DNA of 64,000 bases from contig JAGWAZ010000001.1 in NCBI GenBank assembly GCA_021296135.1, positions 1,908 through 65,907 on the forward strand, read 5' to 3'. Shown piece by piece: positions 913 to 40,546 of this stretch (position 1 is its first letter; the number at the start of each line of letters is the position of its first letter). This stretch comes from Chlorobiota bacterium. GTDB lineage: Bacteria; Bacteroidota; Ignavibacteria; OLB7. Both the position numbers and the translations under genes were made by a program. The notes under the pieces were generated by a model. The model did no database searches and had not been told where the DNA came from. It worked only from the letters and a program-made list of their open reading frames with translations.

Positions 913-927
913 TTTCGAGGACTCTTG

Positions 928-1001
928 TACACCCGAGAGGATTCGAACCCCTAACCTTCTGATCCGTAGTCAGATGCTCTATCCAGTTGAGCTACGGGTG
1001 C
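928..1001 (-). tRNA. tRNA-Arg (anticodon ACG)
   Basis: The reverse complement reads GCACCCGTAGCTCAACTGGATAGAGCATCTGACTACGGATCAGAAGGTTAGGGGTTCGAATCCTCTCGGGTGTA. It folds as a cloverleaf: 7-bp acceptor stem (G1-U72 wobble), D arm, anticodon loop CTACGGA with ACG central, and a GGTTCGAATCC T arm. CCA is not encoded. Confidence 0.85.
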
Positions 1002-2863: not shown

Positions 2864-3397
2864 ATGACCGACAGGATAGACGTTCAGAAGCGCGTAAGTG
2901 ATTCCCAGGTGGAGATGACCGAGTTGGTCCTGCCGAACGATACGAACCAGCTCGGGAACCTTCTTGGCGGACGCCTGATGCACTGGATTGATGTAGCTGC
3001 TGCGCTCGCGGCAATGCGCCATACCGGTGAGGTCTGTGTTACTGCAGCTATCGATAACATGAGTTTCCACGCGCCAATAAACCTTGGATCGATGGTAATC
3101 CTGAAGGCCTCGGTAAATCGTGCGTTCAGTACATCAATGGAAGTGGGAGTCCGTGTTGAAGTTGAGAACCCGAAAGATGGCACGAGCTTCCACGCCAACA
3201 CCACCTATCTGACGTTTGTTGGCATTGACGATCACAATAAACCCTTGCCTGCCCCTCCTATTATCCCTGAATCGCAAGAAGAACTTCGTCGTTTTGAATC
3301 GGCAGGTGTTCGCAGACAGATTCGTCTTGAGGAGCGGAATCGACTTAACAGCCTTCATTCTTCCCGCTATACATCCAACAAAGAGGTAGAATCATGA
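2864..3397 (+). CDS. Acyl-CoA thioesterase (hotdog fold, YciA-like)
   Basis: Motif ...LVLPNDTNQLGNLLGGRLMHWIDVAAALAA... is typical of YciA/acyl-CoA hydrolases. The 3' end overlaps the next gene by 4 bp. Confidence 0.75.
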   Translation: MTDRIDVQKRVSDSQVEMTELVLPNDTNQLGNLLGGRLMHWIDVAAALAAMRHTGEVCVTAAIDNMSFHAPINLGSMVILKASVNRAFSTSMEVGVRVEVENPKDGTSFHANTTYLTFVGIDDHNKPLPAPPIIPESQEELRRFESAGVRRQIRLEERNRLNSLHSSRYTSNKEVES

Positions 3398-5103
3398 AAT
3401 CGGTGCGATGTCCCTGGATAGTCCCAATCGTTCTTCTGATCTCCGGCAGTTTCCAGGCATTCGGTCAGGCTCACGGTGAGCACGACGACCATCTTCACTC
3501 TCTGATCGATGGTGATTATCCTGTCTGTGGGACACATCTCATGTGGCAACTTCAAGTAAACGAGGAGAAACTTGATGATAAGGGAAGGGAATTGCTGCGC
3601 CAGTATCGCGTAACCGATCAGCCGACCATGCAGCGCAACATCGTCAGCTATGACGGGCACTTCAGAATCCACTACGACATTGATGGCAAACATGCTCCAA
3701 GCCCTGTTGATCAGGATAGCAACGGTATTCCCGATTATATCGACTCGGTCGATTTCTATATGGAACTGGCCTGGAAGAAGGAGATTGAGGAATGTGGATT
3801 TGCTCCTCCACCCCCGGATAACATCCGTCCCGGTGTGGGTGGAATAGATGGTCTCGTCGATGTCTTTGTACAGGCACTCTCCAACAGTATCTACGGTTTT
3901 GCTCTACCGGAACCGGGCGGAGAGATTGGTTCAAGAAGCGTTGGCTACCTTATTCTTGACAACGATTATGTCGGATATCCGACTCCCGGTATCGCCGGAC
4001 TGCGCGTTACGAGCGCACATGAATTTCATCATATTGTGCAGTTCGGTGCATATATCAACGACTATTCACAGGGAGCAATTTTCGAAGCGACGTCGACATG
4101 GATGGAATTCAAAGTACATCCCGATCTGACCGATTATCGCCTCTATTTCAATAGATTCCTCAAGCAACCACATGCCTTCTCGTTCGCTACCAACGACGTA
4201 AGCGATGGCATCACAGGATATGCTCATATGCACTACCTGCAATCTCTCGTTCAACAGCTTGACCCCAAGATTGTCAGGGAAATATGGGATCAGTTCAAAA
4301 GCAGTGGAAAGGCCTTTGATGCAATCGATGCCACACTTCGAGCCCGGAATGCCGGAATCAACCTGACCAACAGCTTTTGCACGTTTGCACGATGGAGCTA
4401 CTTCACTGGTTCAAACGCAGTCGATACAATGTTCTTCGCAAAAGCTGATCTCTATCCAACTATCAGATCAGTCTCAACCTTGATTCTCGACGAAGACCTG
4501 GAGAAAGTGATTCCGAACTCCCTCTCCCCACTTTCATTTGGCTTGTGGAGACTCGTTGTGCCTCGTTCCGATCAGTTCGACCCGGACACAGTTGATTTCC
4601 TGATAACAAACGCTCGATCAATGCTCGGGACCGGCGGCCCTTCGGTCAGTAGACCGGAAGACTTCACACTCTTTGTCAGTCAGTCGCCTCGGGGTGGCTA
4701 CACACCAATACTCTACCGTAACGACACACTCTACTATCGACTCGATGCTCCTCACCAGGACTTTTGCGTTGAGACATTCTTCAACGGTAGCCGCGGCATT
4801 CTGGTTACTGTCAACCCTTTGCCTCAACCCTTTGTGAATGATGGAGCCGACCAGATGGTGTTCGCTGTAGACCTGAGCGGTATCGCCATCACGAGAGTGG
4901 AGCTTGACATCTATTCGGCATCAATGACAAAAGTTGCCCGAGTTGAGAGAAATGGCCTTGAGACTCGGGAGAATGTTCAAGGCGTTATCTGGGATGGCAG
5001 GACATCTTCGGGAGAATTTGCCCCAAGTGGTGTCTATATCTATACGCTTGCGATCAATGGCAGCGCACCATCGGTCGGGAAATTTGCTGTTGTCAGGAAA
5101 TGA
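3394..5103 (+). CDS. Secreted HExxH zinc metallopeptidase-like protein with a T9SS C-terminal sorting domain. Family unassigned.
   Basis: N-terminal signal peptide. SAHEFHHIVQFGAY carries HExxH. The C-terminal ~80 aa (...GVIWDGRTSSGEFAPSGVYIYTLAINGSAPSVGKFAVVRK) matches the Por_Secre_tail pattern. Confidence 0.55.
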   Translation: MKSVRCPWIVPIVLLISGSFQAFGQAHGEHDDHLHSLIDGDYPVCGTHLMWQLQVNEEKLDDKGRELLRQYRVTDQPTMQRNIVSYDGHFRIHYDIDGKHAPSPVDQDSNGIPDYIDSVDFYMELAWKKEIEECGFAPPPPDNIRPGVGGIDGLVDVFVQALSNSIYGFALPEPGGEIGSRSVGYLILDNDYVGYPTPGIAGLRVTSAHEFHHIVQFGAYINDYSQGAIFEATSTWMEFKVHPDLTDYRLYFNRFLKQPHAFSFATNDVSDGITGYAHMHYLQSLVQQLDPKIVREIWDQFKSSGKAFDAIDATLRARNAGINLTNSFCTFARWSYFTGSNAVDTMFFAKADLYPTIRSVSTLILDEDLEKVIPNSLSPLSFGLWRLVVPRSDQFDPDTVDFLITNARSMLGTGGPSVSRPEDFTLFVSQSPRGGYTPILYRNDTLYYRLDAPHQDFCVETFFNGSRGILVTVNPLPQPFVNDGADQMVFAVDLSGIAITRVELDIYSASMTKVARVERNGLETRENVQGVIWDGRTSSGEFAPSGVYIYTLAINGSAPSVGKFAVVRK

Positions 5104-34688: not shown

Positions 34689-35270
34689 CTAAGACCGACT
34701 CGCATATTCGGCAATCCGTTCTTTCAAGGACAGAATCACGTAGTGGAAGATCACCGAGTGGATGCTCTCGCACGTACACATATCGTTCAACGGCACATGA
34801 ACTCCTTCCTGGGCTACCTTCTTTACTTTTCCCCCATCAAAACCTGTAATTCCAATGGTCTTCATTCGGCTCTCGTTAGCGTAGTCGATTGCGTTCAATA
34901 GATTTGGACTGTTGCCTGAACCTGAAATGGCAACAAGCAGATCACCCTCGCTACCATATGTACGTAGTTGCTGAAGAAAAACCTGGTCGTATCCTTCGTC
35001 GTTAGCAAGGGCGGAGAAGAAGGGCAGATTATCAGTCAGCGAAAGTGCACGAAGTCTCTTTTGCTGATCCGGGTTGGCCAACGTTCCCTTGGCAAGGTCC
35101 TGGGCAAAATGACTTGCGTTAGCAGCAGAGCCGCCGTTACCGATCACAAAGACCGTTGCCCCACATTCAAACGCATCGTAGAGGGCTTCAACAAGCCCTT
35201 GTACCTCATCCATACTAACCGACTGGAGCGCTTCGAGCGTGTATGCTCTGTAATCCCTGAAGTTCATCAT
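34689..35270 (-). CDS. gmhA: SIS-domain phosphoheptose isomerase (GmhA/DiaA-like)
   Basis: VFVIGNGGSAANASHFAQDL SIS motif, 193 aa. Overlaps the purL stop by 4 bp. Confidence 0.7.
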   Translation of the reverse strand: MMNFRDYRAYTLEALQSVSMDEVQGLVEALYDAFECGATVFVIGNGGSAANASHFAQDLAKGTLANPDQQKRLRALSLTDNLPFFSALANDEGYDQVFLQQLRTYGSEGDLLVAISGSGNSPNLLNAIDYANESRMKTIGITGFDGGKVKKVAQEGVHVPLNDMCTCESIHSVIFHYVILSLKERIAEYASRS

Positions 35271-37513
35271 GCCATTACGTTCTTAAATCCTAATCGCCGC
35301 TCAATTGCCGTATTGTATCGTTCGGCCATCTCAGAAACGTTTGTTGATATGTAGGAGCCAATACGAAAATCCCCATCTGTTACCAGACCAAGAGGAGAAT
35401 ACGGAACAGAATGTGTTTGGGCAATGGCTTTTATCTTCTCTTCGTTTTCAAGAGAGAAGCTGATGACAACTCGTGATTGTGATTCTCCGAAAAGGGCTGA
35501 TATCGGATCTTCAGTCTCAAAGCCAACATCGGCTCCAAGAGTTTGCTCTTTACTGTTGATACTACTCTCTGCCAACGCTATAGCAAGACCACCCTCAGAA
35601 CAATCATGAGCAGAAGAGATGTATCCATTCTGAATAGCTGTAAGGAGAGTTAGATGAAGTCTTTTCTCTACCTCAAGATCTATCGCCGGTGCATCACCTG
35701 CAACTTTTTCAGTCAGGGTTGAAAGAAGCTCACTTCCTCCAAGTTCGTTCCCGACTTCTCCAAGCAACGCAATCAGATCACCTTTGTTCTGAAAACCAGC
35801 AGGAGTAATGTGGTTGAGATCTTCAATCAGACCGAGCATTCCAATCGTTGGTGTAGGATAGACCGCCTTCTCTTGTGATTCATTATGGAACGAGACGTTT
35901 CCTCCGGTCACCGGCGTATCAAAGGAGCGACAAGCATCTCCAATGCCTCGAACTGCTTTTGCAAACTGCCAGTATACTTCAGGGTTATAGGGATTGCCGA
36001 AGTTCAGACAGTTCGTGATTGCAAGCGGAGTAGCACCTGAGCAGACAACGTTCCGTGCTGCTTCCGCCACTGCTATAGCTCCTCCACGATATGGATTCAG
36101 GTAGACATATCGACTATTGCAATCGGTCGCTACGGCAAGTCCTTTTCCGGGGACTTCTTTCAGTCGAAGCACGGCTGCGTCGGAATCAAATGATTGTACG
36201 GTATTGGAACGGACCATCGAATCATACTGATCGTAGACCCATCGTTTGCTCGCGATATTTGGCGATTCCAGCAGTTGGTTAAAGGCGTCGGACGGCGTGA
36301 TACTTCCAATCAACTCGCGAGGGTTGGCCGCCAGGGTTTCATTCAGATATACCGGTTCTTGTTGTTCTCTGATATAGACAGGAGCACCACCACCAAGCAC
36401 AAGGCTCTCAACCGGAATATTTGCAACCCTCTCACCGTTATGATGGAGCTGGATAAAACCATTATCCGTCGTTGTTCCTATGCGTGCAATCGGTACATCC
36501 CATTTCTCGCAGATCGCCTCGGCCTGCGCTATATCCTGCTCTTCGATAACGAGCAACATTCGCTCCTGTGATTCACTGAGCATGATCTCATAGGCTGACA
36601 TATCAGCCTCCCGCAAAGGAACAAGATCGAGGTTGATATTCATTCCCGTTCTTCCCTTCTGGCTCATCTCTGAGGTTGAGCAACTTATTCCAGCCGCTCC
36701 CATATCCTGCATACCAATCACAATACCCGAAGCAATCAACTCAAGGCTTGCCTCCAGAAGCATCTTCTCATAGAATGGATCACCAACCTGAACAGTCGGG
36801 CGCATGTCTTCTGTCTTCTCGTCAAACTCACGCGAGGCGAGGAGAGAAGCGCCGTGAATACCATCCCGACCAGTTCGAGCGCCAAGGATCATTACGGCTT
36901 TTTTCGGAGCGCCACTGGTTGCCGAAGCAGTCTGATCAGCCTTGAGGATACCGACTGCCATCACGTTAACAAGAGGGTTGTCACAATAGCAATCCTCAAA
37001 GAAGACCTCTCCGCCAACGGTTGGAACGCCGAATGAGTTTCCATAGTTACTAATTCCTTTTACAACACCCTCAAAGAGAAATCTTGTTCGCTGATTGTCG
37101 AGTCGTCCGAATCGAAGTGAGTCGAGAGCTGCAATTGGCCGTGCACCCATTGTAAATATATCGCGCAGGATGCCACCAACACCGGTCGCAGCCCCTTGAT
37201 ATGGCTCAACAGCTGAGGGATGATTATGACTTTCAATCTTGAAGGCAACGGCATAGCCATCCTCAATATCAACAAGACCGGCGTTCTCCTCTCCGGCCTC
37301 AACCAAAAGCCTACTGCCGCTTCGAGGGAGTGTCTTAAGTTGTGCGATAGAATTCTTATAGCTGCAATGCTCACTCCACATCACGGAGTAAACGCCAAGT
37401 TCAGTATAGTTCGGAACGCGATCAAGCAATTCGCAGATGCTCTCATACTCCTGCTCGGTCAACCCAAGATTCTTTGCGTCCTCGACAGTAGTTGTATGTG
37501 TGTCAGGATTCAT
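35267..37513 (-). CDS. purL: Phosphoribosylformylglycinamidine synthase subunit II
   Basis: Start chosen at MNPDTHTTTVEDAKNLGLTEQEYE. AIR-synthase-related repeated domains (..GAATGVGGILRDI.. and ..ATDCNSRYV..). Confidence 0.9.
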   Translation of the reverse strand: MNPDTHTTTVEDAKNLGLTEQEYESICELLDRVPNYTELGVYSVMWSEHCSYKNSIAQLKTLPRSGSRLLVEAGEENAGLVDIEDGYAVAFKIESHNHPSAVEPYQGAATGVGGILRDIFTMGARPIAALDSLRFGRLDNQRTRFLFEGVVKGISNYGNSFGVPTVGGEVFFEDCYCDNPLVNVMAVGILKADQTASATSGAPKKAVMILGARTGRDGIHGASLLASREFDEKTEDMRPTVQVGDPFYEKMLLEASLELIASGIVIGMQDMGAAGISCSTSEMSQKGRTGMNINLDLVPLREADMSAYEIMLSESQERMLLVIEEQDIAQAEAICEKWDVPIARIGTTTDNGFIQLHHNGERVANIPVESLVLGGGAPVYIREQQEPVYLNETLAANPRELIGSITPSDAFNQLLESPNIASKRWVYDQYDSMVRSNTVQSFDSDAAVLRLKEVPGKGLAVATDCNSRYVYLNPYRGGAIAVAEAARNVVCSGATPLAITNCLNFGNPYNPEVYWQFAKAVRGIGDACRSFDTPVTGGNVSFHNESQEKAVYPTPTIGMLGLIEDLNHITPAGFQNKGDLIALLGEVGNELGGSELLSTLTEKVAGDAPAIDLEVEKRLHLTLLTAIQNGYISSAHDCSEGGLAIALAESSINSKEQTLGADVGFETEDPISALFGESQSRVVISFSLENEEKIKAIAQTHSVPYSPLGLVTDGDFRIGSYISTNVSEMAERYNTAIERRLGFKNVMA

Positions 37514-37559
37514 TCTGAATGAATACGATTCAATTTTGCTAAATAATAGTTTTGACTTT

Positions 37560-38027
37560 TCACCATGAGATACCAAGTAACACAAGAGGAACTGCAGGAC
37601 TGCCACGACCTTGCCTAAGGAGATTGTATAGTTCCCCCTCGTAGTACGCTACTCCCGAAGACATTTGGGACTGCAATTCTTTCATCGGGAGAATTTCGAC
37701 TCCAACGTCAATGACATCGCCAACAAAGAAGGCCATGTGCTTGACGAAAAGGTCATATGCAACAAATGAGTACTTGCCGAACTGCACTTCAACAGCAACT
37801 CTGTCCTTAACAAAATCAGTCTGGTTGTATGAATAGATCGGCTCTAATCCGGCTTCAAGGATTTCACTTTTTTGTTTCTCTATTGGCATTGTCAATATTT
37901 TGCGGATTAGGCGATGATCAGAAGTAACCCAGTATGAAGTACGAGATTCATGCCATTCATTTTTCTCGAGCTTATCCTTGAATAGACGATTGAGTGCAAT
38001 AGGACTATAAAGGAGTTTTCCTCTCAT
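37560..38027 (-). CDS. Putative Type II restriction endonuclease (BglII/BamHI-like fold). Start uncertain (alternative 38072).
   Basis: Small (~155-170 aa) protein directly downstream of the MTase on the same strand. Segment TDFVKDRVAVEVQFGKYSFVAYDLFVKH resembles the BamHI active-site region (D..EFETGN) and the BglII D/E/Q catalytic arrangement as I recall them. This is not verified. The gene is low-GC. Confidence 0.45.
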   Translation of the reverse strand: MRGKLLYSPIALNRLFKDKLEKNEWHESRTSYWVTSDHRLIRKILTMPIEKQKSEILEAGLEPIYSYNQTDFVKDRVAVEVQFGKYSFVAYDLFVKHMAFFVGDVIDVGVEILPMKELQSQMSSGVAYYEGELYNLLRQGRGSPAVPLVLLGISW

Positions 38028-38171
38028 TGTCTTTTCCTTCGACACTTTTGTACGACGATTTCTCTGCATCAATGTTCTGAATAACGGCTAGAATTTCCTG
38101 CCAAATTTGTGGTTTATGAACGAGTATATGTTCTCGACCATTGAGGTGTGAATATTGCTCGACTATTCGCA

Positions 38172-39062
38172 TTAGTAGCCTCCGTTCGGCAATGTAGGGT
38201 TGTAGACCGGTTTGTTGATGGGACGTGTTTTCAGAGCCCCGTTTTTTAATGCTGTTACACGCTCTTCGGCTATTTTGATATACTCTAACTCAACATCACA
38301 GCCATATCCAATTCGCCGATGTTTCATAGCAGCTATGATCGATGAACCGACTCCCATATATGGGTCCAGCACTCCATCCCCTTGTTGAGTCATAGATAGA
38401 ACCAGACGTTCAACAAGCTCAACAGGGAACTGACAAGGATGAATTGTTTTCTCAACGTGATTAGACTTTACGTTGGGAATTTCCCAAACATCGCTCGGAT
38501 TTTTACCCAAGGGATTTCCAGACAATTGCCCTTGCTTCGGGCCTTTGAAATGTTTTTTCTTAGGATATTTCGATTGTACTCTGACAGGATCGACGTCAAA
38601 GAAATAGTCGTCAGATTTAGTGAACCAGAGTATTGTTTCGTGCCGTCCTGAAAACCGATGAGTACAGTGGAGACCGTGTCCGAAATGCCATATAATCCTA
38701 TTCCTCAACTTAAGGTCAAGTTTTTTGAATAAAGGATAGAGCACGATATCAAGAGGAAAGAGCTCTTTATCGTTAGCAATATGGTTTCCTACTTGCCAAC
38801 AAAGTGAACCACTTGGATGTAAAACCCTTACACATTCTTGAATAACCTGAGACTGTTCATTTAAATAGTCACCCAAATTTGTTCGCTCTTCATACGATTT
38901 GCCGATGTTGTACGGAGGAGATGTAACAATCAACATCATACTATCATCCTGAATCCGTGGCATAAACTCGAGGTTGCTCTCACACGCGATTACAGGTTCA
39001 GGATAATCATATAGATCAATCCCTAATTGTTCATGATTTTGAGATGTATCGTTCATATTCAA
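38172..39062 (-). CDS. DNA methyltransferase of the N4-cytosine/N6-adenine family (pfam01555-like, beta-class). The SPPY motif favours an N4-cytosine enzyme.
   Basis: Motif IV LIVTSPPYNIG near the N-terminus and motif I VLDPYMGVGSSIIAA near the C-terminus (beta permutation). AT-rich relative to the flanking genes. Confidence 0.8.
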   Translation of the reverse strand: MNMNDTSQNHEQLGIDLYDYPEPVIACESNLEFMPRIQDDSMMLIVTSPPYNIGKSYEERTNLGDYLNEQSQVIQECVRVLHPSGSLCWQVGNHIANDKELFPLDIVLYPLFKKLDLKLRNRIIWHFGHGLHCTHRFSGRHETILWFTKSDDYFFDVDPVRVQSKYPKKKHFKGPKQGQLSGNPLGKNPSDVWEIPNVKSNHVEKTIHPCQFPVELVERLVLSMTQQGDGVLDPYMGVGSSIIAAMKHRRIGYGCDVELEYIKIAEERVTALKNGALKTRPINKPVYNPTLPNGGY

Positions 39063-39118
39063 TACCTCATAGAGAATATACCGCCACCGAGCTCTTGATA
39101 GAAAATGATAATATTCCT

Positions 39119-40546
39119 TTAATTTTGCCTCTCCCTAACTCTCTGCTCCGTTCTAATCGCAGCAGCAACGGCAACTCTCATTACCTCCTCATCAATCACT
39201 TGTTCTGGCTCCGTCCAGTGCTTCTTGAGGTAACCCGTAGAAAAATTACCAACGCGGAACTCTTCGTTTCTTAAGACTGCTCGGCAGAATGGAATAGTTG
39301 TTGCGACTCCTGCAATGTAGTATTGATCCAGAGCTGAAAGAGTACGTTCAATTGCTTCGTTGCGGTCTGATCCCCAACAGATAAGCTTTGCAATCATCGG
39401 ATCGTAGTATAGTGAGATCTCCATGCCAGGGTAGATAGAGGAATCGACCCGAATATGCTCTCCTTCAGGTTCATGTATATCAAAAATTGTTCCAATGCTC
39501 GGCAGGAAGTTGTCGTAGGAATCTTCTGCACAAACCCGACACTCTATTGCATGACCATTGAATTGAATATCCGAATTCTTCAACGGCAACTCTTCTCCCC
39601 TCGCAACGCGGATCTGCAACTCTACCAGATCAAGTCCCGTCACCATCTCGGTGACCGGGTGCTCAACCTGGAGTCGCGTGTTTACTTCGAGGAAGTAATA
39701 GTTACCGGATGAATCGAGCAGGAATTCGAGCGTTCCTGCGTTTGTATAGTTGGCAGCAGCGACAAGCTTCCTGGCACTGGCAAACATTCGAGCACGGAGA
39801 TCAGCATTGAGGGCAACCGAGGGAGATTCCTCAATCACTTTCTGATGACGCCTTTGGATCGAACATTCACGTTCTCCAAGGACAAGCACATTCCCATGAT
39901 TGTCGGCGACAACCTGGATTTCGATGTGACGAGGCTCTTCAATGTACTTCTCAAGAAAAACCTCATCATCGCCAAACGCAGTCATTGCTTCACCTTGAGC
40001 CGCTCGTAAACCACTTTCAAGTTCTGAAGTTTCCCGAACGACTCTCATTCCTTTACCGCCTCCACCAGCAGCAGCTTTCAGCAGTACGGGATAGCCGATC
40101 TCCTCTGCGGTCCCATAAGCCTTATCAATAGAAGAGACTCCGGATGTTGTTCCCGGTATCACTGAAACCCCTGACTCGATAGCCAGGCGACGGGCGTTTG
40201 TTTTGCTTCCAAAGCCCTTAATTGCCTCGGGTGCCGGCCCAATGAATGTGATGCCTGTATCATTGCATCTCTTGGCAAAATCGGTGTTCTCACTCAAAAA
40301 GCCATACCCGGGGTGAAGCGCATCGGCCCCAGATTTCCTGGCTATTTCGAATACCAAATCCATATCAAGATAGGTCTCACCGGGGGTTAATCCGGGTAAC
40401 CGATAGGCTTCCGTTGCCTCACCAACATATGGTGCTGGCGTATCGACATCGGAGTATATCGCAACTGTCTCAATTCCCATACGATGAGCCGTCCGAATAA
40501 CTCGGTGCGCAATTTCACCTCGATTTGCTATGAGGATTTTTTTCAT
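39119..40546 (-). CDS. accC: Biotin carboxylase (acetyl-CoA carboxylase subunit)
   Basis: MKKILIANRGEIA, ATP-grasp motifs, 475 aa. Confidence 0.85.
   Translation of the reverse strand: MKKILIANRGEIAHRVIRTAHRMGIETVAIYSDVDTPAPYVGEATEAYRLPGLTPGETYLDMDLVFEIARKSGADALHPGYGFLSENTDFAKRCNDTGITFIGPAPEAIKGFGSKTNARRLAIESGVSVIPGTTSGVSSIDKAYGTAEEIGYPVLLKAAAGGGGKGMRVVRETSELESGLRAAQGEAMTAFGDDEVFLEKYIEEPRHIEIQVVADNHGNVLVLGERECSIQRRHQKVIEESPSVALNADLRARMFASARKLVAAANYTNAGTLEFLLDSSGNYYFLEVNTRLQVEHPVTEMVTGLDLVELQIRVARGEELPLKNSDIQFNGHAIECRVCAEDSYDNFLPSIGTIFDIHEPEGEHIRVDSSIYPGMEISLYYDPMIAKLICWGSDRNEAIERTLSALDQYYIAGVATTIPFCRAVLRNEEFRVGNFSTGYLKKHWTEPEQVIDEEVMRVAVAAAIRTEQRVRERQN

What the first reader, a model, noticed from the sequence alone, without database searches (positions are those of the whole stretch)
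37560..39062. Low-GC two-gene Type II restriction-modification island between accC and purL
Two co-oriented genes sit in a tight housekeeping neighbourhood (mutS2-gatB ... accC | R-M | purL-gmhA) and are visibly more AT-rich than their flanks.
- The 296-aa protein has SPPY motif IV ahead of motif I, the beta-class permutation typical of N4-cytosine methyltransferases such as M.PvuII, M.BamHI and M.BglII.
- The adjacent 155-170-aa protein carries TDFVKDRVAVEVQFGKYSFVAYDL. This resembles the BamHI (D..EFETGN) and BglII (Asp/Glu/Gln) catalytic cores as I remember them.

Together they look like a horizontally acquired Type IIP defence module whose nuclease is small and may be divergent.
Basis: partly seen in the sequence, partly recalled or inferred. 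Interest (0 to 1): 0.55.

Follow-up and report, generated by a model that had tools for sequence, protein, structure and literature searches.

The report
BstYI-type restriction-modification cassette, nuclease gene broken
This is an ordinary, horizontally acquired BstYI-family restriction-modification gene pair in which the methylase gene is intact but the nuclease gene is a frameshifted pseudogene, so it is a decaying defence module and not a small divergent nuclease.

Summary
A low-GC 1.5-kb insert (41.6% GC against 48.0 ± 1.7%) lies between accC and purL and is absent from that junction in the nearest sampled relative.

- **Methylase.** The 294-aa protein is an intact beta-class amino-methyltransferase (PF01555), with SPPY ahead of motif I.
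- **Nuclease.** The "small nuclease" is the 3' piece of a broken gene. A 55-aa ORF (38005-38172) matches BstYI residues 1-38. The 170-aa ORF (37560-38072) matches residues 40-202 in another frame.
- **Repair test.** Removing the extra C at 38057 gives a 203-aa protein 70% identical to BstYI (PDB 1SDO, E=1e-90). The catalytic Asp119/Glu128/Gln130 are kept.
- **Not a sequencing error.** At least five independent metagenome assemblies carry the same insertion. Two carry a second frameshift. One lacks the insertion but has lost the nuclease start codon.
- **Population.** The methylase is intact in all of them. No full-length nuclease more than 76% identical was found among 5.8 billion proteins.
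- **Homologues.** Intact homologues elsewhere have the same methylase-then-nuclease layout.

Verdict: a known kind of Type IIP system (probably RGATCY / m4C) caught during nuclease loss, leaving a solitary methylase. Low novelty.

The parts
38172..39056 (-). Methyltransferase gene (294 aa from ATG 39056; an alternative TTG at 39062 gives 296 aa). It is an intact beta-class N4/N6 amino-methyltransferase and the cognate partner type of BstYI-family nucleases.
   Evidence: Pfam PF01555, 170.5 bits, E=6.6e-50. PADLOC MTase_II, E=1.1e-82. It is 58-68% identical to the methylases sitting immediately upstream of intact BstYI homologues. It is 294 aa and uninterrupted in all 8 distinct contigs examined. 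NCBI lists it as MCE2502475.1, site-specific DNA-methyltransferase, Chlorobi bacterium MAG.
38910..38921 (-). Methylase motif IV, SPPY (aa 46-49).
   Evidence: The same TSPPYNIGK string occurs in the methylases next to intact homologues.
38340..38366 (-). Methylase motif I region, DPYMGVGSS (aa 231-239). It lies C-terminal to motif IV, which is the beta-class order.
   Evidence: alignment to M.RsrI over aa 27-275.
37560..38172 (-). Complete remnant of the BstYI-type restriction endonuclease gene (a pseudogene). It would be 203 codons if the extra base at 38057 were removed.
   Evidence: The repaired translation aligns 1-202 with BstYI (1SDO), E=1.2e-90, 142/202 identical. The unrepaired pieces match BstYI 1-38 and 40-202 separately, and PADLOC REase_II PDLC03442 positions 1-47 and 39-202.
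38005..38172 (-). 5' fragment of the nuclease gene: a 55-aa ORF. Its ATG (38172-38170) shares one base with the methylase stop codon (TAATG). Residues 1-38 are native; the last 17 are out of frame.
38057..38057 (-). Inserted C that shifts the nuclease reading frame. The inferred ancestral sequence is GAG AAA TGT CGT ACA (E K C R T).
   Evidence: The variant contig L006 lacks this base and then reads EKCRTK in frame. Cys39 is nearly invariant in the family.
37560..38072 (-). 3' fragment of the nuclease gene: 170-aa ORF from TTG, or 155 aa from the internal ATG at 38027.
   Evidence: Pfam Endonuc-BglII profile positions 40-162, E=1.5e-28. BstYI residues 40-202, E=1.3e-74.
37782..37817 (-). Catalytic core codons Asp119 ... 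Glu128-Val-Gln130. They align with BglII Asp84/Glu93/Gln95.
   Evidence: (alignment to BglII 82-95). All three are invariant in 24 family members.
39118..39128 (.). Left copy of an 11-nt imperfect direct repeat (10/11), overlapping the accC stop codon. Possible insertion scar.
   Evidence: family D6. My estimate of the chance probability is about 5%, so this is only suggestive.
37529..37539 (.). Right copy of the same 11-nt repeat, in the spacer between the nuclease stop codon and the purL start.
   Evidence: family D6.

Best explanation
A BstYI-family Type IIP restriction-modification cassette was inserted by horizontal transfer between accC and purL. The methylase gene sits upstream and is translationally coupled to the nuclease gene through a TAATG overlap. 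The host is an uncultivated Chlorobi/Ignavibacteria-group bacterium.

The nuclease gene has since been inactivated. In this window the cause is a single-base insertion at codon 39, which leaves a 55-aa and a 155-170-aa ORF. The methylase gene remains intact.

Shown: the gene identities, the frameshift, its presence in independent assemblies, other independent lesions in sister variants, and the absence of the cassette from the nearest relative.

Inferred:
1. The ancestral enzyme cut R^GATCY, as BstYI does.
2. The methylase makes N4-methylcytosine in RGATCY. It has motif SPPY, and BstYI is not blocked by adenine methylation of GATC, so a protecting amino-methylase should act on cytosine.
3. The nuclease is now dead and the methylase survives as a solitary enzyme.
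4. Nuclease-first decay is the expected order, because losing the methylase while the nuclease is active kills the cell.
For: **Identity**
- Pfam, PADLOC and PDB matches.
- A fold search with a model of an intact homologue ranks BstYI, then BglII, then BamHI.

**The split is real**
- The two nuclease ORFs tile BstYI residues 1-38 and 40-202 in different frames.
- The same insertion is present in contigs from ERZ15614635, SRR35761419, ERZ23495265, ERZ15614304 and a 3.4-Mb contig of ERZ18545484.

**Independent further lesions**
- L003 and L007 have an added deletion of T at 37711.
- L006 lacks the insertion but has a 9-bp deletion that removes the nuclease ATG. No canonical start is left before a GTG that gives 161 aa.

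**Population and homologues**
- The methylase is 294 aa and intact in all variants.
- No full-length nuclease more than 76% identical exists among 5.8 billion proteins; only 155/161-aa fragments of this allele are on record.
- Inactivation looks recent: the repaired protein keeps all 79 family-invariant residues.
- Intact homologues have the same methylase-then-nuclease overlapping layout.

**Horizontal origin**
- The island has the lowest GC in the window.
- In the relative L011 (accC 81% identical), accC is followed directly by purL across a 112-bp spacer.

**Literature**
- BstYI recognises RGATCY (PMC2731914).
- M.BamHI and M.BglII are N4mC methylases, and M.BstYI possibly is (PMC2890505).
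- BstYI is insensitive to 6mA (PMC10734518).
- Restriction-modification genes are often pseudogenised and insert between housekeeping genes (PMC4760077).
Against: - Methylase activity and specificity are not measured. The best-scoring solved relatives of the methylase are adenine enzymes (M.RsrI), and NCBIfam gives only sub-threshold 'adenine-specific' hits.
- RGATCY is not specifically avoided in the window: 49 observed against 72 expected, ratio 0.68, against a median of 0.82 and interquartile range 0.61-0.98 for palindromic hexamers. There is therefore no genomic footprint of past restriction pressure.
- The 155-aa C-terminal ORF stays open in two of the three allele types, so a residual function is not formally excluded.
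- Too few substitutions exist to show purifying selection on the methylase: 3 non-synonymous and 2 synonymous.
Confidence: 0.82

Rival explanations
1. The system is fully functional and the frameshift is an assembly or sequencing error, so a normal 203-aa BstYI isoschizomer is made.
For: A single extra base is the only lesion in this window. Removing it restores a protein with every family-invariant residue.
Against: The identical insertion recurs in at least five assemblies from different studies and assemblers, including a 3.4-Mb contig. The site (TCGTCG) is not a homopolymer. Sister variants carry different additional or alternative lesions. No intact near-identical protein is on record.
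Confidence: 0.03
2. The nuclease is expressed through programmed +1 ribosomal frameshifting or phase variation, which would give regulated, low-level restriction.
For: The two ORFs overlap by 68 nt, and a +1 shift anywhere within 38005-38090 would give a full-length product.
Against: There is no slippery or homopolymeric tract and no stop or rare codon at the shift site. Intact homologues need no frameshift. The L006 variant lacks the shift but has lost the start codon, and L003 and L007 add a second frameshift. None of this fits a conserved recoding signal.
Confidence: 0.02
3. The truncated 155-aa product, or the 55-aa and 155-aa fragments together, keeps a function such as weak or nicking nuclease activity or RGATCY-specific DNA binding.
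For: The C-terminal ORF holds Asp119/Glu128/Gln130 and the C-terminal half of the fold. An AAGGA sequence lies 7 nt upstream of the internal ATG at 38027. This ORF is still open in allele types A and C.
Against: The missing 48 residues contain 12 family-invariant positions. In the model of an intact homologue they form strand 2-9, helices 12-19 and 21-33, and strand 40-43 of the core. Allele B truncates the C-terminal ORF to 114 aa. All three SNPs seen in the nuclease region are non-synonymous, as expected for relaxed constraint.
Confidence: 0.05
4. The whole cassette is inert: the methylase is also silent or inactive and simply has not yet accumulated visible lesions.
For: Nuclease inactivation appears recent, so an unselected methylase could still look intact. 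No sigma-70-like promoter match lies in the 62-bp spacer upstream of the methylase. This is weak evidence, because promoters of this phylum are not covered by the scan.
Against: The methylase is full length with all motifs in every variant. The three disruptive lesions all fall in the 613-bp nuclease gene and none disrupts the 885-bp methylase gene. The chance of that under equal rates is about 0.07 (my calculation).
Confidence: 0.1

Closest known systems
BstYI restriction-modification system of Geobacillus (Bacillus) stearothermophilus Y406 (R.BstYI, PDB 1SDO/1VRR/2P0J; recognises R^GATCY)
   Same: The repaired nuclease has the same length (203 aa) and aligns end to end without gaps at 70% identity. 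Asp119/Glu128/Gln130 are conserved, as are Lys133 and Ser172, which I recall as specificity-related residues. It is partnered with a PF01555 methylase. The family-wide layout is methylase followed by nuclease.
   Different: The nuclease gene here is frameshifted and non-functional. The host is a mesophilic-looking Chlorobi/Ignavibacteria-group MAG, not a thermophilic Firmicute. Specificity is inferred and not measured.
BglII (AGATCT) and BamHI (GGATCC) restriction endonucleases
   Same: Same structural group. The Pfam family is named after BglII. The D...ExQ core aligns with BglII Asp84/Glu93/Gln95. The fold search ranks BglII and then BamHI after BstYI.
   Different: The similarity is only remote: BglII E=3e-4 by sequence and 19% identity in the fold alignment.
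Solitary (orphan) methyltransferases derived from decayed restriction-modification systems, and pseudogenised R-M cassettes inserted between housekeeping genes (for example Candidatus Endomicrobium trichonymphae, PMC4760077)
   Same: A Type II cassette is inserted between conserved housekeeping genes. The nuclease is pseudogenised while the methylase is retained. The cassette is absent from the same junction in a relative.
   Different: The decay here is caught very early: one base in this window. It is also polymorphic in a natural population, with at least three allele types. The methylase is not conserved across species in the way Dam or CcrM are.

Membership tests
BglII/BstYI family Type IIP restriction endonuclease (Pfam PF09195) | Significant match to the family profile | tested here: met
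   The 170-aa ORF scores 100.1 bits against a cut-off of 26, covering profile positions 40-162. The 55-aa ORF covers profile positions 4-35. PADLOC REase_II gives E=2.7e-79.
BglII/BstYI family Type IIP restriction endonuclease (Pfam PF09195) | Catalytic Asp ... Glu-x-Gln core (BglII Asp84/Glu93/Gln95) | tested here: met
   Asp119, Glu128 and Gln130 are present at window 37782-37817 and invariant in 24 homologues.
BglII/BstYI family Type IIP restriction endonuclease (Pfam PF09195) | One uninterrupted reading frame of about 203 codons with its own start codon | tested here: not met
   A 1-nt insertion at 38057 splits the gene. Every sampled variant has a lesion.
BglII/BstYI family Type IIP restriction endonuclease (Pfam PF09195) | Cleavage at R^GATCY | not testable with these tools
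   Inferred only, from 70% identity to BstYI and conserved Lys133 and Ser172.
Functional Type II restriction-modification system | Adjacent cognate methylase and nuclease genes | tested here: met
   Methylase then nuclease with a TAATG overlap. The same layout occurs at intact homologues L091, L093 and L095, whose methylases are 58-68% identical to this one.
Functional Type II restriction-modification system | Both genes intact | tested here: not met
   The nuclease is frameshifted and the methylase is intact.
Beta-class N4/N6 DNA amino-methyltransferase (Pfam PF01555) | Profile match, with motif IV (xPPY) N-terminal to motif I (AdoMet-binding glycine-rich loop) | tested here: met
   170.5 bits against a cut-off of 26.7. 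SPPY is at aa 46-49 and DPYMGVGSS at aa 231-239.
N4-cytosine-specific methyltransferase (M.BamHI / M.BglII / M.BstYI type) | Transfers a methyl group to N4 of cytosine | tested here: inconclusive
   In favour: Ser-Pro-Pro-Tyr is the motif typical of N4C enzymes (established knowledge). M.BstYI is 'possibly' N4mC (PMC2890505). BstYI is insensitive to 6mA (PMC10734518). Against: the best solved sequence relatives are adenine enzymes (M.RsrI E=1.5e-32), ahead of an N4C enzyme at E=2.6e-20.
Conserved orphan methyltransferase (Dam/CcrM-like, regulatory) | Conserved at the same locus across related species without a nuclease gene | tested here: not met
   It is absent from the accC-purL junction of the nearest relative L011. 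A nuclease remnant is still attached. The GC content is foreign.

The most novel reading that the evidence does not exclude
The nuclease has been knocked out at least twice independently, by the insertion at 38057 and by the start-codon deletion in L006. In both cases the 155-161-aa C-terminal ORF with the catalytic core remains open. One could read this as selection for an attenuated or repurposed BstYI fragment, for example an RGATCY-binding or nicking protein, or a two-piece enzyme made from the 55-aa and 155-aa products, and not simple gene death.
Probability: 0.04. Interest if true: 0.5.

Novelty: new member of a known kind. Interest (0 to 1): 0.15.

Why it matters
**Annotation.** An automated or by-eye reading would log a working Type II defence system with an unusually small nuclease. 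In fact the locus contributes at most a methylation mark, probably m4C at RGATCY.

**Natural history.** It is a clean small example of how solitary methylases arise. The nuclease dies first, by different mutations in co-existing lineages, and the methylase persists. The same metagenome (ERZ18545484) also holds other genomes with intact BstYI-family systems, so the methylation could still influence DNA exchange in that community.

None of this changes current understanding of restriction-modification biology.

Tried and rejected
- **Metagenome pattern scans.** I made two exact-pattern scans of metagenome contigs. One used the ancestral, insertion-free sequence around 38057 and one used the catalytic-core DNA. 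Both returned 0 hits, so they added no further alleles. The JGI contig L003 was reachable only through the protein look-up.
- **Structure of the repaired nuclease.** I modelled the intact homologue P0014 instead: pLDDT 76, top fold hits BstYI, then BglII, then BamHI.
- **Site avoidance.** RGATCY gives a ratio of 0.68, inside the interquartile range of all palindromic hexamers. This is uninformative.
- **Regulatory signal scan.** It found no terminator-like site and no convincing promoter in the spacers. The scan does not cover this phylum's promoters.
- **Junction alignment.** Aligning the island's edges with the L011 spacer showed only weak similarity near purL, so the exact insertion boundaries are not defined.
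- **NCBIfam.** No above-threshold equivalog for the methylase and none at all for the nuclease.
- **Searches not run.** A second large protein search with the methylase was judged not worth its cost. REBASE is not available.

Full report
**What is in the sequence**

On the minus strand between biotin carboxylase (accC-type, 39119-40546) and purL (true start ATG 37513) lie three ORFs, not two:
- a 294/296-aa ORF at 38172-39056/39062;
- a 55-aa ORF at 38005-38172;
- a 170-aa ORF at 37560-38072, or 155 aa from the ATG at 38027.

The 1.5-kb stretch is 41.6% GC. The window mean is 48.0% (sd 1.7% for windows of that size). It is the lowest-GC stretch of the whole 64 kb.

**The methylase**

- The 294-aa protein matches Pfam N6_N4_Mtase (170.5 bits, E=6.6e-50) and PADLOC MTase_II (E=1.1e-82).
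- SPPY (aa 46-49) lies ahead of the AdoMet loop DPYMGVGSS (aa 231-239). This is the beta-class order.
- Among solved structures it aligns best with M.RsrI and other beta-class enzymes.
- NCBI lists it as MCE2502475.1 from a 'Chlorobi bacterium' MAG. accC carries the neighbouring accession MCE2502476.1.

**The nuclease is one gene split in two**

- Pfam places the 170-aa ORF on positions 40-162 of the Endonuc-BglII profile and the 55-aa ORF on positions 4-35 of the same profile.
- PADLOC's 203-position REase_II model is covered at 39-202 and 1-47 respectively.
- Against the PDB, the unmodified ORFs match BstYI residues 40-202 (E=1.3e-74) and 1-38 (E=1.3e-10).
- The 55-aa ORF starts with an ATG that shares its A with the methylase stop codon (TAATG).
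- Deleting one base anywhere in 38005-38090 fuses the two ORFs.
- Deleting the C at 38057 gives a 203-aa protein that aligns end to end with BstYI (E=1.2e-90; 142/202 identical).
- Asp119, Glu128 and Gln130 align with BglII Asp84/Glu93/Gln95. They are conserved, as are Lys133 and Ser172.
- A model of an intact homologue (pLDDT 76) finds BstYI, then BglII, then BamHI in a fold search.

The nuclease is thus not small or divergent. It is a conventional BstYI homologue with a frameshift.

**The frameshift is real, and the nuclease is dead across the sampled population**

Exact-protein look-ups found the locus in many independent assemblies at 99% identity or more. Aligning them gives three allele types.

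| Allele | Contigs | Lesion in the nuclease gene |
|---|---|---|
| A | window; ERZ15614635; SRR35761419; ERZ23495265; ERZ15614304; a 3.4-Mb contig of ERZ18545484 | extra C at 38057 |
| B | JGI 3300002734; ERZ15614475 | as A, plus deletion of T at 37711, which cuts the 3' ORF to 114 aa |
| C | ERZ23495219 (L006) | no extra C, so the frame reads ...DAEKCRTKVSKEKT... as in the family (Cys39 nearly invariant); a 9-bp deletion (38171-38179) removes the ATG, and the first canonical start left is a GTG giving 161 aa |

- The methylase is 294 aa and uninterrupted in all variants. The only changes are R34W, L99V, I280M, Y294E and two synonymous substitutions.
- All three SNPs in the nuclease gene are non-synonymous.
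- A search of 5.8 billion proteins with the repaired nuclease found thousands of intact 203-aa homologues, but none above 76% identity. Only 155/161-aa fragments of this allele are on record.
- The repaired protein keeps all 79 family-invariant residues, so the inactivation is recent.

**Context and origin**

- Intact homologues (L091 in an Armatimonadota MAG; L093 and L094; L095 in a Bacteroidota MAG) all have a PF01555 methylase immediately upstream that overlaps the nuclease start. Those methylases are 58-68% identical to this one. The cassette architecture is the family standard.
- The nearest genome found with accC is an Ignavibacteria MAG (L011, 81% identity). It has the same ATP synthase - YqeY - mutS2 - accC - purL - SIS gene order. 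There accC is followed directly by purL across a 112-bp spacer, with no restriction-modification genes.
- Together with the foreign GC content, this shows a lineage-specific insertion.
- An imperfect 11-nt direct repeat (10/11) brackets the island at 39118-39128 and 37529-37539. I estimate a chance probability of about 5%, so it is only a possible scar.

**Mechanism**

Shown:
- gene identities;
- the frameshift;
- several independent disabling lesions;
- an intact methylase;
- absence of the cassette in a relative.

Inferred from established knowledge and the literature:
- The ancestral enzyme cut R^GATCY like BstYI (PMC2731914).
- The methylase most likely makes N4-methylcytosine. SPPY is the N4C-type motif IV. 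M.BamHI and M.BglII are N4mC enzymes and M.BstYI possibly is (PMC2890505).
- BstYI is not blocked by adenine methylation (PMC10734518). A protecting amino-methylase should therefore act on cytosine.
- Decay that starts with the nuclease is the expected route, because loss of the methylase with an active nuclease is lethal. Pseudogenised restriction-modification genes inserted between housekeeping genes are documented (PMC4760077).

The locus now most likely provides only a methylation mark.

**Rivals**

| Rival | Main evidence against | Confidence |
|---|---|---|
| Sequencing error | same lesion in many assemblies; non-homopolymer site; alternative lesions elsewhere | 0.03 |
| Programmed frameshifting or phase variation | no shifty site; allele C lacks the shift; allele B adds another | 0.02 |
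| Functional truncated or split product | see below | 0.05 |
| Fully inert cassette | cannot be excluded without methylome data | 0.10 |

The truncated or split product is not excluded, but several points weigh against it:
- The missing 48 residues carry 12 invariant positions.
- In the model they form two strands and two helices.
- Allele B breaks the 3' ORF.

**Tests that were uninformative**

- RGATCY occurs 49 times against 72 expected (ratio 0.68). This is within the spread for palindromic hexamers (median 0.82, interquartile range 0.61-0.98).
- Two metagenome DNA pattern scans returned nothing.
- The promoter and terminator scan gave nothing useful.

**Verdict**

This is a new but ordinary member of the BstYI restriction-modification family, caught early in nuclease loss. 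Interest is low. The modest value lies in correct annotation, and in a tidy population snapshot of how a solitary methylase arises.

Noticed in passing
window 37529-37539 and 39118-39128: An 11-nt direct repeat (TTCAATTTTGC / TTTAATTTTGC, 10/11) brackets the island, 1589 bp apart. One copy overlaps the accC stop codon and the other lies between the nuclease stop and the purL start. It may be an insertion scar or microhomology, but I estimate about a 5% chance of it arising at random.
   Followed up: partly
window 35267-37606: The longest purL ORF (779 aa from GTG) overlaps the 3' end of the nuclease remnant by 47 bp. The NCBIfam match, the gene calls and the relative L011 (MNPDTRTTTVEDAK...) all place the true start at ATG 37513, giving 748 aa.
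   Followed up: yes
L093 and L094 (ERZ18545484 contigs ptg000567l and ptg000677l), 3052-4612: The metagenome that yields the 3.4-Mb contig carrying this broken locus also contains two other large contigs with an intact BstYI-family methylase-nuclease pair (nuclease 75% identical). Working systems of the same family, and so presumably of the same specificity, therefore co-occur in the community.
   Followed up: partly
window 35818-39414: There is no RGATCY site in the 3.6 kb spanning the island and its edges. With one to two sites expected in the 1.6-kb island itself, this is not significant.
   Followed up: partly
whole window: The CTAG-containing palindromes ACTAGT, CCTAGG and TCTAGA are absent. 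GGGCCC (1 against 4.8 expected) and GCATGC (3 against 9.1) are the most depleted hexamers with a meaningful expectation. This could reflect other restriction systems or general CTAG avoidance.
   Followed up: no
L003, L006 and L007 versus the other loci; window positions 38550, 38553 and 37619: SNPs are shared in a mosaic pattern between allele types. L006 shares the two methylase SNPs with allele B and the 37619 SNP with some allele A contigs. This hints at recombination within the population or at old polymorphism.
   Followed up: no
window 927-1001: A single tRNA-Arg(ACG) gene on the minus strand is the only Rfam or ARAGORN RNA hit in the 64-kb window.
   Followed up: no
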